A stretch of DNA of 64,000 nucleotides from Candidatus Binatia bacterium (GTDB taxonomy: Bacteria > Desulfobacterota > Binatia > UBA9968 > JAJDTQ01), in assembly GCA_963666515.2 (NCBI GenBank), contig OY762897.2, forward strand, positions 4,352,001 through 4,416,000, written 5' to 3'. This document shows, one piece after another, positions 61,310 through 63,188 of this stretch (position 1 is the first letter of the stretch; the number at the start of each line of letters is the position of its first letter). The position numbers and the translations under genes were made by a program. The notes under the pieces are model-generated. The model was not told where the DNA came from, made no database searches, and worked only from the letters and a program-made list of their open reading frames with translations.

Positions 61310-63188
61310 CTAGAATCCTTGATCGACAGGATCTTGACTCAGGAAGACAAGATATTTGAACTGGACTTCGTTCGTACATGAATACTATCGTAGGCCATCG
61401 CGAGTTGTAACGCTCGGTAGTTTAAGCGACGAGCTTCGCCTCATCGCAAATGGCATCGAGGTTCCTGGTGATGGCGGCAAAGCGCCGATGGGTCTTGGTA
61501 TTGCCGCTCACGGCGTCGGGCGCAAGATGGGCCAGGCCGGGGCGAAGGATGCGGTTGTAGACACGCGTGTAGAACATCGCCACCTTGAGGCCGTGTTCGG
61601 TCAAGTGGTAGCGGTAGGCGCCGGGGATGCGCTCGATCAGGCCGTGCAGGCGCAGGCGTCTCAGGTCGTAACTCATTCGGCCCGGGCGCATTGGACTGGG
61701 ATCGAGGCCCAGGAGTGCACCGAGGTGCCCGCGCAGGTCGCGGTTGGAGAAGCCGCGGGCCGAAAGAGTGAACAAGAGCAGGGCCTGCATCAGAGCCTGC
61801 ACGCGCTCATCGGCGAAGCGCAGGGCCGAGGCGCGTTGTCCGTGGAACTCCAGGCCGCGTTGATGGCGTTGGAGTTCGTCTTCACCCAGGGCACAGTCGT
61901 GGCTGATGGTTTCTATCTGCAACAGACGACGGTTGGCTGTGAAGCCGACCTGGCACAACGCCGCCAGGTTAGACAGCCGCCGGCCCAGGGCGAAGTCATA
62001 GGTGTCGTTGACGGTGGTCTCGGTGCGCAGCGCCTGCCCTTCCTTGTGGTACTGCTTGATGCGCGAGTGCTTGTAGTCCACGTGCAAGGAAGGGGTGACG
62101 CCTGCGGTGATGACCCGGGTACGGAACCGACCGGGGGTGCGCCGGGTGACCCGGCGCTGGAAGATCAACTGCACCTGGCTGGGGCGACCGAGATCGAGGT
62201 TCTCGCGGATCACGTCCTCGAAAAAGACGCGGCCCGAGGCCGGGCGGTCGAGCACCTGGGTCAGGCTGAACTCCGCTTGCAGGATGGAGATGTCGTAGCG
62301 CAGACCGGCGCGACGGTCCTGAGGCGTATACGGATGCGGCAGGCGATCGAACCACTTGCGCGCCAGTCTGTCGATGAAAGCGGCATCGAAGCCTTCGCAG
62401 ATCTGTTGCAGCGCCTCGGGGTCTCCGCAGCAGCGCACGCCGTTGTCCAAAGCCTCGAACGGGATGCCGCGCTCGCGCAACTGGCACTTGGCGTACTCGT
62501 TGCCGTTGAGGCACAGCTTGCCGTTGTACGGGAAGTAGGTGCAGAACTTGATGAAGAACGGCCCCGCCTGTTTGTCCACGCAATAGAAATACACATGGTT
62601 GACCATCGCGGTAGACGAGACCACCCACGGATAGGTGACCCCGGTGTCCGGGTTCCGGCGCCGCTCGGTGCGCATCACACGGGCCTTCTCCTGCGCTATC
62701 CCGATGTACAAAACCCCTTCGGTTCCCTTGAACCGCCCCAGGTACTCCTGCGTCACCTCGTCCTTGCGCTGGCCCTTCTTGAAGTGCACCACCTCGATCT
62801 GCTCCCGCTCCGCAAAGTCCTTCACCGCCTGCACGAACTCCCGACTCTTGGGCGCCAGCGCCACCGTCGACGCAAACCGCTGGCCATGGTGCTTGTGCAG
62901 ATACCCCACTACCCCGCCCACGCTCTGCAACTGCGGCACATACAGGTTCAAGTACAGGCGATCCACCGACTCGTATTCCAGCGTCACGTGATCGCGCAAT
63001 ACTTCCGCTACGGTTTGTGGTAGGCTCATGTCCGGCTCCGGTTGCTTCGGGCTTTTATGCCCATTTGACCCTTTGAGGTCCGACCTTGCAAGGTCCCATG
63101 ACCAGGGATTCAATCCCTGCTACAAGCGACCGGAGCCAATCCCCTTACCCCCTCGTCGGTCTGAGGCGAAGCCTCGCTAGAATTCTTG
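61310..63188 (-). mobile_element. Putative single-ORF insertion element bounded by CTAGAATYCTTG direct repeats
   Basis: CTAGAATCCTTG (61310-61321) and CTAGAATTCTTG (63177-63188); one ORF plus structured leader; interrupts a defence locus. Confidence 0.55.
61422..63029 (-). CDS. Rep_trans-like putative tyrosine nickase/transposase with C-terminal winged HTH (535 aa)
   Basis: SRIKQYHKEGQALRTETT resembles the YxK...RxE core of Rep_trans/filamentous-phage initiators; GFSNRDLR...SYDLRRLRLHGLIERIPGAYRYHLT is wHTH-like. The ORF is solid; the function is inferred. Confidence 0.6.
   Translation of the reverse strand: MSLPQTVAEVLRDHVTLEYESVDRLYLNLYVPQLQSVGGVVGYLHKHHGQRFASTVALAPKSREFVQAVKDFAEREQIEVVHFKKGQRKDEVTQEYLGRFKGTEGVLYIGIAQEKARVMRTERRRNPDTGVTYPWVVSSTAMVNHVYFYCVDKQAGPFFIKFCTYFPYNGKLCLNGNEYAKCQLRERGIPFEALDNGVRCCGDPEALQQICEGFDAAFIDRLARKWFDRLPHPYTPQDRRAGLRYDISILQAEFSLTQVLDRPASGRVFFEDVIRENLDLGRPSQVQLIFQRRVTRRTPGRFRTRVITAGVTPSLHVDYKHSRIKQYHKEGQALRTETTVNDTYDFALGRRLSNLAALCQVGFTANRRLLQIETISHDCALGEDELQRHQRGLEFHGQRASALRFADERVQALMQALLLFTLSARGFSNRDLRGHLGALLGLDPSPMRPGRMSYDLRRLRLHGLIERIPGAYRYHLTEHGLKVAMFYTRVYNRILRPGLAHLAPDAVSGNTKTHRRFAAITRNLDAICDEAKLVA

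What the first reader, a model, noticed from the sequence alone, without database searches (positions are those of the whole stretch)
63034..63175. Dense multi-branch structure immediately upstream of the Rep-like ORF
Seen on the + strand: closing stem GGCTCCGGTTGCTT (63034-47) / AAGCGACCGGAGCC (63124-37), 13/14 Watson-Crick. It encloses GGGC-TTTTAT-GCCC (63049-62), GACC-CTTTGA-GGTC (63067-80), the perfect palindrome GACCTTGCAAGGTC (63082-95) and CAGGGATT-C-AATCCCTG (63103-19). Outside it lies GAGGC-GAA-GCCTC (63163-75), containing GCGAAGC, an established unusually stable DNA mini-hairpin. The closing stem ends 4 nt from the start codon and covers the likely RBS (GGAG on the minus strand). Inference: an element-encoded ncRNA, a translational repressor, or a single-strand origin.
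Basis: partly seen in the sequence, partly recalled or inferred. Interest (0 to 1): 0.8.

Follow-up and report, generated by a model that had tools for sequence, protein, structure and literature searches.

The report
Conserved structured RNA in unrecognised transposon
The multi-hairpin structure is real and conserved across bacterial phyla; it lies between the end of a previously unannotated, very widespread insertion sequence and its only gene, and most likely is a small antisense RNA, mirrored by a ribosome-site-hiding mRNA leader, that controls production of the element's putative transposase.

Summary
All stems are at the stated coordinates. Both strands fold better than 200 of 200 shuffles (z -3.6 and -4.7).

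The region is not upstream of a Rep gene. It lies inside a 1871-bp insertion sequence (window 61310-63180). The genome holds 9 identical copies. The element sits at a CTAG target.

Its single 535-aa protein has no Pfam, NCBIfam, PHROG or PADLOC match. It has no PDB fold match except a C-terminal winged helix. The family has 10,355 representative clusters.

The closing stem plus 3-4 hairpins recurs upstream of homologues in many phyla (54 of 61 sequences against 30 of 305 shuffles). Covariation is strong: 21 of 29 pairs changed on both sides, 95% of cells paired, 0 of 500 shuffles as high. No Rfam family matches.

Two results point to the strand opposite the gene, the window + strand:
- Single mismatches in the closing stem are A.C 25 times and G.U once on the sense strand.
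- A TAnnnT -10 box (61, 61 and 58 of 61) lies 5-7 nt before the first stem base.

Best reading: an outward-reading antisense sRNA plus a Shine-Dalgarno-sequestering leader, comparable to IS10 RNA-OUT, IS200 art200 and ISPpu9 Asr9. No expression data were available.

The parts
61310..63180 (-). Whole insertion sequence, 1871 bp including CTAG at both junctions. The gene is on the minus strand.
   Evidence: There are 9 copies at 100% identity in the genome. Boundaries were read in 8 of the 9 copies. Metagenome contigs diverge at 63180-63182.
61310..61313 (.). CTAG at the junction on the 3' side of the gene
   Evidence: Empty orthologous sites carry a single CTAG.
61314..61343 (-). 3' subterminal region. 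It holds a small hairpin ATCCT/AGGAT (61315-19 with 61328-32) with GATCGAC in its loop, followed by TTGACTCAGG.
   Evidence: Read. Relatives share a 3' end of the form AAACTTGACTCAA..GGTCAAGnnnTCTAG.
61422..63029 (-). Only ORF, 535 aa. It is the putative transposase, of unknown fold, with a C-terminal winged helix.
   Evidence: (homologues of 534-548 aa cover 100% of it).
63018..63026 (+). Predicted extended -10 promoter box TGgTAGGCT (hexamer 63021-26) for an RNA antisense to the gene. It overlaps codons 2-4.
   Evidence: TAnnnT is conserved as T 61 of 61, A 61 of 61 and T 58 of 61, in 25 different hexamers. It is predicted, not mapped.
63034..63047 (+). Closing stem P1, first arm. It is the predicted 5' end of the antisense RNA. 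On the minus strand it reads as the SD-containing arm, with GGAG at 63036-39.
63049..63062 (+). Hairpin GGGC-TTTTAT-GCCC. It corresponds to P4 of relatives.
63067..63080 (+). Hairpin GACC-CTTTGA-GGTC. It corresponds to P3 of relatives.
63082..63095 (+). Hairpin GACCTTGCAAGGTC
   Evidence: Only the closest relatives L009 and L084 also have four hairpins.
63103..63119 (+). Hairpin CAGGGATT-C-AATCCCTG
63124..63137 (+). Closing stem P1, second arm
63138..63162 (+). Linker, C-rich on the + strand. It ends in CTCGTCGGTCT (63152-62), the complement of the family-wide AGACCGACGAG subterminal motif.
63163..63175 (+). Terminal hairpin GAGGC-GAA-GCCTC
   Evidence: The stem changes on both sides in relatives: GAGGC/GCCTC, GGGGC/GCCCC and GGGGT/ACCCC.
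63177..63180 (.). CTAG at the junction on the 5' side of the gene

Best explanation
The structure is the regulatory module of a previously unannotated insertion-sequence family. It sits between the element's end and the start of its only gene.

The strand opposite the gene (window + strand) most likely encodes a small, very stable antisense RNA. A conserved TAnnnT -10 box overlaps codons 2-3 of the gene. From it, transcription would start at about 63033-34, the first base of the closing stem, and run outward through the four hairpins. The RNA would be at least about 105 nt (to 63137) and could reach the element end at 63180.

This RNA is fully complementary to the leader of the transposase mRNA, including the GGAG ribosome-binding site. 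In the mRNA itself the same closing stem locks GGAG into a 14-bp helix.

Together the two RNAs would set the level of transposase translation. Pairing probably starts by loop-loop contacts between the mirrored hairpins.

Shown here: the structure, its conservation and covariation, the strand bias of wobble-compatible mismatches, the conserved -10 box and its fixed spacing, and the transposon context.

Inferred: that the RNA is made, its ends, and whether it represses (as RNA-OUT and art200 do) or activates (as Asr9 does).
For: 1. Mobile-element context. There are 9 identical copies with sharp ends carrying CTAG. A single CTAG occupies the orthologous empty site in 2 related genomes (G008, G007); a third (G018) has CTAC there.

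2. Conservation. The R1 model built from 11 relatives finds the window copy (32.4 bits, E 2e-6) and 33 others. It finds exactly the 9 IS copies in the whole genome. A long-range stem of at least 8 bp enclosing 3-4 hairpins is the minimum-energy fold in 54 of 61 distinct upstream regions. The same holds for 30 of 305 shuffles.

3. Covariation, on 34 sequences and 29 pairs. 95.0% of cells are paired, and 21 pairs changed on both sides. The covariation score is 0.278 against a shuffle mean of 0.071, with 0 of 500 shuffles as high. Slid controls give 26-55% paired.

4. Strand of the structure. I folded with Watson-Crick pairs only, which treats both strands alike. Single mismatches in the closing stem are then A.C-type 25 times (20 distinct contexts), G.U-type once and other types 6 times, read on the sense strand. 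In the hairpins the counts are 7, 3 and 11. A.C on the sense strand is G.U on the antisense strand. On alignment A7, 923 of 948 cells pair on the antisense strand and 901 of 948 on the sense strand.

5. Promoter. On the antisense strand TAnnnT is T 61 of 61, A 61 of 61 and T 58 of 61, in 25 different hexamers. The TA is the end of a triplet that reads GTA 22, ATA 19, CTA 11 and TTA 9 times, so the amino acid varies while TA stays. In one subgroup the box overlaps the ATG itself. The positions of an extended -10 TG hold T in 35 and G in 43 of 61. The first base of the closing stem lies 5-7 nt after the hexamer in 45 of the 59 sequences in which the stem was found.

6. Termination. In the subgroup with the duplicated end, an A5 run precedes the stem on the sense strand. 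That gives a U5 run directly after the stem on the antisense RNA.

7. Precedents, abstracts read. IS200 has an antisense sRNA opposite the tnpA leader plus a leader structure that represses translation (PMC4513863). ISPpu9 has the stable antisense Asr9 plus an RBS-containing leader structure (PMC8450116).
Against: There are no expression data, so the RNA, its start and its end are predictions.

A strict sigma-70 consensus scan finds 0 promoters on either strand of the element. The -35 region lies in coding sequence and matches TTGACA at only about 3 of 6 positions.

Whole-region folding energies do not favour the antisense strand. The sense strand is more stable in 42 of 61 sequences and the antisense in 19. 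Predicted G.U pairs number 170 on the sense strand and 128 on the antisense. That test includes flanks outside the closing stem.

In three relatives (L026, L028, L042) the P4 loop is a GNRA tetraloop on the sense strand.

There is no U-run after the stem in the window's own subgroup.

G.T wobbles in single-stranded DNA of the same strand would give the same mismatch asymmetry.

The CM-fitted alignment used for the pair counts leans toward the modelled structure.
Confidence: 0.55

Rival explanations
1. Only the sense strand matters. The structure is a cis-acting mRNA leader whose closing stem hides the Shine-Dalgarno sequence. It keeps translation low and blocks activation by read-through transcripts from outside the element. 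No antisense RNA is made.
For: GGAG lies in the closing stem 4-6 nt before the ATG. The stem arm holding GGAG is nearly invariant. The sense strand folds more stably in 42 of 61 sequences. Sense-strand GNRA loops occur in 3 relatives. Leader structures that repress transposase translation are documented for IS200 and ISPpu9 (abstracts).
Against: Mismatches in the closing stem are of the kind that breaks the sense helix but keeps the antisense helix: A.C 25 against G.U 1. This reading does not explain the invariant TA and T at fixed distance from the stem, across changing codons and a shifted start codon. It also does not explain why 3-4 inner hairpins are kept by compensatory change when one stem would hide the SD.
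Confidence: 0.2
2. The hairpins form in single-stranded DNA of the + strand at the transposon end. They serve the transposase in recognising or processing the end, as with the subterminal hairpins of IS200/IS605.
For: Both element ends carry a small hairpin a few bases from the terminus, and the 5' terminal hairpin's stem changes on both sides. There are no long terminal inverted repeats. The mismatch asymmetry is equally compatible with G.T wobbles in one DNA strand. The protein has several invariant tyrosines: Y147, Y327 and Y454.
Against: The protein has no HUH or Y1 transposase signature. The multi-branch module lies 40 to more than 150 nt from the terminus, with a linker of very variable length. 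That is unlike a cleavage-site-guiding hairpin. CTA(G) is present at both junctions and once in empty sites, which fits a short target duplication by staggered cuts in double-stranded DNA. This reading does not use the conserved -10 box or the U-run after the stem.
Confidence: 0.1
3. The outward-reading RNA is a working partner of the unknown-fold transposase. It would act as a scaffold or guide, comparable to IS110 bridge RNA or the TnpB omega RNA that reads across the element end.
For: The geometry fits: a structured RNA that starts inside the element and points across its end into the flank. It is conserved across phyla together with a protein of no known family. The element lacks long terminal repeats.
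Against: Target choice is only CTAG or CTAR, and the flanks of the 8 copies read are otherwise unrelated. No loop complementary to the target or the ends was found by eye. The linker between the module and the end varies from about 25 to more than 150 nt. One subgroup has a U-run right after the stem, which suggests the RNA stops before the end. No DEDD or TnpB domain is present.
Confidence: 0.08
4. The palindromes are double-stranded DNA binding sites for the winged-helix protein, or a chance cluster of inverted repeats.
For: The protein has a MarR-like winged helix. GC-rich DNA gives many short palindromes.
Against: In 0 of 200 shuffles does either strand fold as well. Pair partners change together while the sequence is not kept. 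The closing stem pairs arms 76 nt apart.
Confidence: 0.03

Closest known systems
IS10/Tn10 RNA-OUT antisense control of transposase. Details are recalled. Only search listings were seen, e.g. PMC5006887.
   Same: A promoter just inside the transposase gene start reads outward. It gives a stable structured RNA complementary to the ribosome-binding region of the transposase mRNA.
   Different: RNA-OUT is a single stem-loop of about 70 nt. Here a closing stem encloses 3-4 hairpins, about 105 nt in all. There is no sequence or Rfam similarity. The predicted RNA starts 4-5 nt upstream of the AUG, so it covers the SD but not the start codon. The transposase is unrelated.
IS200 art200 sRNA plus tnpA leader stem (PMC4513863, abstract read)
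   Same: An antisense sRNA is encoded opposite the transposase 5' UTR. Independently, a leader secondary structure represses translation.
   Different: IS200 has an HUH Y1 transposase. No homology of RNA or protein was found here. The architecture is multi-branch.
ISPpu9 Asr9 antisense sRNA (IS110 family; PMC8450116, abstract read)
   Same: A very stable antisense RNA is complementary to a long structured leader that includes the RBS.
   Different: Asr9 appears to activate translation by opening the leader. The direction of the effect here is unknown. ISPpu9 encodes a DEDD transposase, which is absent here.
IS110 bridge RNA and IS1111 seekRNA (PMC11208160 and PMC11187229, starts of abstracts seen)
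   Same: A conserved structured non-coding region lies next to the transposase gene in an element without long terminal inverted repeats.
   Different: Bridge RNA is on the sense strand, and its internal loops pair with a long specific target and donor. Here the target is only CTAG, the strand evidence points to antisense, and the protein has no DEDD or Tnp domains.
TnpB/IscB omega RNA of IS200/IS605 elements (recalled)
   Same: A structured RNA at an element end is oriented so that transcription runs across the boundary into the flank.
   Different: There is no TnpB or IscB domain and no match to the Rfam families for such RNAs. The distance to the end is variable. There is no evidence that the transcript reaches the flank.

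Membership tests
Any Rfam 15 family | Covariance-model match at or above the gathering score | tested here: not met
   Window 61000-64000: 7 matches with E up to 10. None overlaps 63034-63175 and all are below gathering. Five relatives' loci: 1 match (mir-616, 25.6 bits against gathering 100), taken as chance.
Cis-antisense sRNA control of a transposase (RNA-OUT / art200 / Asr9 kind) | Promoter on the strand opposite the transposase gene, reading across its leader | tested here: inconclusive
   A conserved TAnnnT (61, 61 and 58 of 61) lies 5-7 nt before the stem in 45 of 59 sequences. The strict consensus scan finds 0 promoters, and there is no transcript evidence.
Cis-antisense sRNA control of a transposase (RNA-OUT / art200 / Asr9 kind) | Complementarity to the ribosome-binding site of the transposase mRNA | tested here: met
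   The predicted RNA begins with GGCUCC, the complement of GGAGCC, 4 nt upstream of the ATG.
Cis-antisense sRNA control of a transposase (RNA-OUT / art200 / Asr9 kind) | Stable conserved secondary structure of the antisense RNA | tested here: met
   The + strand folds with z -4.70. Covariation was shown. Mismatches are wobble-compatible on this strand.
Cis-antisense sRNA control of a transposase (RNA-OUT / art200 / Asr9 kind) | The RNA is expressed and changes transposase translation | not testable with these tools
   This needs TSS mapping and reporter assays.
IS110/IS1111 bridge or seek RNA | DEDD (RuvC-like) plus Tnp-domain recombinase | tested here: not met
   There was no Pfam match at E up to 0.01 for the protein, and at E up to 1 the 27 family members matched only weak helix-turn-helix models, none of them DEDD.
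IS110/IS1111 bridge or seek RNA | Loops complementary to a specific target and to the donor ends | tested here: not met
   The flanks of the 8 copies read share only CTAG. No such complementarity was seen on inspection. The inspection was by eye, not exhaustive.
IS200/IS605 | HUH Y1 transposase, or TnpB | tested here: not met
   no match.
IS200/IS605 | Subterminal hairpins at both ends and insertion next to a fixed tetranucleotide without duplication | tested here: inconclusive
   Hairpins lie near both ends, and CTA(G) is at both junctions. The data cannot separate a 2-4 bp duplication from a target-adjacent insertion.
   No Rep family appears in Pfam, NCBIfam or PHROGs. The element is chromosomal, in 9 dispersed copies.
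Known IS families as modelled by NCBIfam and Pfam | Transposase matches a family model | tested here: not met
   There were 0 families for the protein. The 27 aligned members gave only weak HTH or chance hits. RefSeq plasmid copies are annotated 'hypothetical protein'.

The most novel reading that the evidence does not exclude
The outward-reading structured RNA is not merely a regulator. It is an obligatory RNA subunit, a scaffold or guide, of a transposase with a fold unlike any solved structure. That would make this a second, independent lineage of RNA-assisted transposition in a family with more than 10,000 representative clusters spread across bacterial phyla.
Probability: 0.08. Interest if true: 0.95.

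Novelty: new variant of a known kind. Interest (0 to 1): 0.64.

Why it matters
Three things follow if this holds.

First, there would be a very abundant insertion-sequence family that current annotation calls 'hypothetical protein'. It has 10,355 representative clusters at 50% identity. Its members occur in Proteobacteria, Acidobacteriota, Actinomycetota, Verrucomicrobiota, Chloroflexota, Gemmatimonadota and others. Genome annotation and repeat masking currently miss it.

Second, its putative transposase has about 400 residues with no detectable relative among solved structures. That makes it a candidate for a new transposition chemistry.

Third, the roughly 105-nt multi-branch RNA is a well-supported new RNA family that is absent from Rfam. 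It comes with a clear, cheap experimental prediction: a start site at the first base of the closing stem, on the strand opposite the gene.

The regulatory logic itself, antisense RNA plus SD sequestration, is known from IS10, IS200 and ISPpu9. The mechanism is therefore probably a variant of a known kind and not a new principle.

Tried and rejected
Rfam searches of the window region and of five relatives found nothing relevant.

Protein libraries gave no match: Pfam, NCBIfam, PHROGs and PADLOC.

A PDB sequence-profile search gave only weak winged-helix hits with E of 0.08 or more.

Foldseek against PDB gave 0 matches at E up to 0.001. Its confident rows were MarR/PadR/ArsR-type winged helices against the C-terminus.

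The ESM Atlas returned 30 of 30 nearest clusters as 'hypothetical protein' with no common Pfam family.

The first RNAalifold run, on a plain MAFFT alignment of 61 sequences, recovered only 6 pairs of the closing stem, because the hairpins were misaligned. I replaced it with a covariance-model alignment.

Alignment A3 was cut too short and discarded. A4 had hairpin P2 out of register between subgroups and was not used for the model.

Model R1 with default filters did not reach the two most distant subgroups. For those, conservation rests on single-sequence folds, not on pair counts.

The whole-region sense against antisense energy comparison was mixed.

The small + strand ORF 63028-63180 (50 aa) was rejected as a gene. 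Its ATG depends on a CATG that many relatives lack.

I looked by eye for a conserved sense-strand promoter upstream of the stem. TAAGGT sits directly before the stem in one subgroup only. The transposase promoter remains unidentified.

I also looked by eye for complementarity between loops and the element ends or target. There was one weak resemblance in the window only (GGATTC in a hairpin arm and in the 3' end), and relatives do not reproduce it.

No RNA holder was listed among the public runs. Contigs of four metagenome runs were laid. They showed the copy-number step and the boundary, but no empty-site joint.

No empty site for the window's own copy was found among 27 other genomes of the genus.

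Literature searches found no description of this family or motif. Supplements of papers were not consulted, because they are closed, and might hold such lists.

I did not run a second structure job on single domains. I judged it unlikely to change the Foldseek result.
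Full report
**Observation.** I read 62400-64000. The 171 nt around it fold into a closing stem that encloses four hairpins on either strand. The strand of the gene folds at -70.9 kcal/mol (z -3.56). The + strand folds at -68.2 kcal/mol (z -4.70). On each strand 0 of 200 dinucleotide shuffles fold as well. The gene's ATG is at 63029-63027. Homologues of 534-548 aa align from that methionine at 100% coverage, so the longer TTG-started frame through the structure is not the gene. 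The stem arm nearest the ATG reads GGAGCC on the gene's strand.

**What surrounds it.** The region is inside a mobile element. A 2-kb query finds 9 copies at 100% identity in the 4.67-Mb genome, plus two 92-nt fragments. The covariance model of the structure finds exactly those 9 places. In the 8 copies I read, identity starts at CTAG and stops at CTAG, with unrelated flanks. In window coordinates the element is 61310-63180. It has no long terminal inverted repeats. One copy (L005) sits where two related genomes (G008, G007) have a single CTAGT at the end of a conserved gene, and a third (G018) has CTAC. The element therefore inserts at CTAG, and CTA(G) then appears at both junctions.

Multi-copy relatives show the same pattern: 5' CTAA-CG(A/G)GG..., 3' ...TCTAG, and one pair with CTAg or CTAa. 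I cannot tell a 2-4 bp duplication from a target-adjacent insertion. None of the other 27 genomes of the genus holds the element at E up to 1e-20, so it is probably a recent arrival in this genome. Metagenome contigs show a depth of about 190 on the element against about 16 on the flanks in run X1. They diverge at 63180-63182.

**The protein.** The only ORF (535 aa) has no match in Pfam, NCBIfam, PHROGs or PADLOC. Its 26 aligned relatives have none either, beyond weak helix-turn-helix models. The family is very large. All 8000 scored candidates passed E 1e-3 in the 90%-clustered collection. Among the 120 listed, sources give no name or only 'hypothetical protein', and most sit on contigs of 1.7-3 kb. 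In the 50%-clustered library, 10,355 representatives pass E 1e-3. Eighty genomic loci were kept from Proteobacteria, Acidobacteriota, Actinomycetota, Verrucomicrobiota, Chloroflexota, Gemmatimonadota, Armatimonadota, Planctomycetota and others, several per genome in some MAGs. RefSeq plasmid copies are annotated 'hypothetical protein'.

An AlphaFold2 model is confident (pLDDT 85.6, pTM 0.77). Foldseek against PDB gives no match at E up to 0.001. Its only high-probability rows are MarR/PadR/ArsR winged helices on the C-terminal part. Invariant residues include D23, R24, Q113, E114, Y147, D152, N175, N196, E253, K325, Y327, R335, E337 and Y454. I call the protein a putative transposase because it is the sole gene of a multi-copy element. 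Its chemistry is unknown.

**Is the structure conserved?** Yes. Single-sequence folds of the regions upstream of homologues show a closing stem with three (sometimes four) hairpins in sequences that differ widely. Among 61 distinct upstream regions, 54 have a long-range stem of at least 8 bp enclosing 3-4 hairpins as the minimum-energy fold. Only 30 of 305 shuffles do. A covariance model built from 11 relatives retrieves 34 distinct sequences, including the window's. On that alignment 95.0% of 948 cells form standard pairs. Of 29 pairs, 21 show changes on both sides. The covariation score is 0.278 against 0.071 for shuffles, with 0 of 500 shuffles as high, and sliding the partners drops pairing to 26-55%.

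This alignment is fitted to the model, which favours the structure. The two most distant subgroups were not reached by the model and rest on single-sequence folds. Neither the window nor five relatives match any Rfam family.

**Which strand?** The two strands of a helix are equivalent except for wobble pairs, so I folded each sequence with Watson-Crick pairs only and classified the isolated mismatches. In the closing stem, read on the gene's strand, they are A.C or C.A 25 times (20 distinct sequence contexts, in all subgroups), G.U once and other types 6 times. In the hairpins the counts are 7, 3 and 11. A.C on the gene's strand is G.U on the opposite strand. On alignment A7, 923 of 948 cells pair on that strand and 901 on the gene's strand.

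Against this, whole-region energies favour the gene's strand in 42 of 61 sequences (flanks included). Three relatives also have GNRA loops on the gene's strand. Both transcripts may therefore fold and matter.

**A promoter for that strand.** In all 61 sequences the ninth and tenth bases around the start codon region are TA, and the base five before them is A in 58. On the opposite strand this reads TAnnnT, the core of a -10 box. It occurs as 25 different hexamers. The TA ends a triplet that reads GTA, ATA, CTA or TTA (22, 19, 11 and 9 times), so the amino acid changes while TA stays. In one subgroup the hexamer overlaps the ATG itself, so its position follows the stem and not the reading frame.

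The positions of an extended -10 TG hold T in 35 and G in 43 of 61 sequences. The first base of the closing stem lies 5-7 nt after the hexamer in 45 of the 59 sequences where the stem was found. That is the usual distance to a transcription start. In the window the box is TGgTAGGCT at 63018-26, and the predicted start is 63033-34.

In the subgroup with a duplicated end, a U5 run follows the closing stem on this strand, as in an intrinsic terminator. The window's subgroup has none. A strict two-hexamer scan finds no promoter in the element, and the -35 region cannot be judged because it is coding.

**Mechanism proposed.** An RNA of about 105 nt or more starts at the base of its own closing stem, which would protect its 5' end. 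It is complementary to the transposase leader, including GGAG. In the mRNA the same stem hides GGAG. This is the arrangement described for IS200 (art200 plus a leader structure; abstract of PMC4513863) and for ISPpu9 (stable Asr9 plus an RBS-containing leader; abstract of PMC8450116). From recall, it is also the arrangement of IS10 RNA-OUT. Whether the RNA represses or activates cannot be said. The mirrored hairpin loops would allow kissing contacts of the kind used by multi-stem-loop antisense RNAs (recalled).

**Other element features.** The 5' end carries CTA(A/G)-CGAGGC-nnn-GCCTC-AGACCGACGAG in 60 of 74 loci examined. The small terminal hairpin changes on both sides (GAGGC/GCCTC, GGGGC/GCCCC, GGGGT/ACCCC). 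In 18 of 74 loci a second, inverted copy lies about 60 nt further in. The 3' end is conserved as AAACTTGACTCAA..GGTCAAGnnnTCTAG. GACCGA-like motifs lie near both termini and are plausible binding sites for the winged helix (inference). The linker between the module and the terminal hairpin varies from about 25 nt to more than 150 nt. That argues for a self-contained module.

**Rivals.**
- A purely cis-acting leader explains the SD sequestration. It does not explain the mismatch bias, the -10 box or the extra hairpins.
- Single-stranded DNA hairpins would share the mismatch bias and fit the hairpins at both ends. The protein has no HUH signature, the module is far from the terminus at a variable distance, and the promoter and U-run would be left unexplained.
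- A guide or scaffold RNA for the novel protein is not excluded and would be important. The target is only CTAG, I found no target-complementary loop, and the spacing to the end is not fixed.

**Limits.**
- There are no RNA data.
- Paper supplements were not seen.
- The pair counts cover 34 sequences of the nearer subgroups.

**Verdict.** It is a new, covariation-supported RNA structure belonging to an unannotated and very widespread insertion-sequence family. It most likely works as an antisense-RNA and leader switch on transposase translation.

Noticed in passing
window 57995-64000: The element sits in what looks like a defence island. A GmrSD-type restriction gene is at 57995-59704 (+). A 507-aa ORF with no Pfam or PADLOC match is at 59724-61247 (-). 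A DUF1156 gene starts at about 63494 (+). The predicted outward promoter of the element points toward the DUF1156 gene, about 310 nt away, and could affect its expression.
   Followed up: no
G000:C1:2645461-2645643: Two adjacent 92-nt fragments, 90-92% identical to internal parts of the element's ORF. They are probably a decayed older copy.
   Followed up: no
L048, L051, L056-L058, L060, L062-L066, L070, L071, L073-L075, L081 (5' ends): In this subgroup the terminal ~24 nt of the element is repeated in inverted orientation about 60 nt further in. The two copies can form a long hairpin directly next to the closing stem. L038, L040/L041, L043/L082 and L044 show similar inverted second copies.
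   Followed up: partly
L005 copy (G000:C1:943993-945865) and L090-L093: This copy is inserted exactly at the TAG stop codon region (..GAC TAG) of a conserved gene. The target CTAG contains a stop codon on both strands. About 400 bp on the other side of this copy is a further segment that is absent from the same locus in G018 and matches many other places weakly.
   Followed up: no
window 63052-63148: Metagenome contigs from the same study carry variants of the element with 1-nt deletions or insertions at 63052, 63056, 63059, 63097, 63138 and 63148. Some of these lie in hairpin loops and in the linker.
   Followed up: no
window 63138-63162 and relatives' linkers: The linker between the module and the terminal hairpin is G-rich on the gene's strand, with runs of GG to GGGGG, and C-rich on the other strand, in many relatives. 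I assigned no function to it.
   Followed up: no
window 6097-6208 (-): A weak match to model R1 (15.7 bits, E 0.14), far from any element copy. I took it as chance.
   Followed up: no
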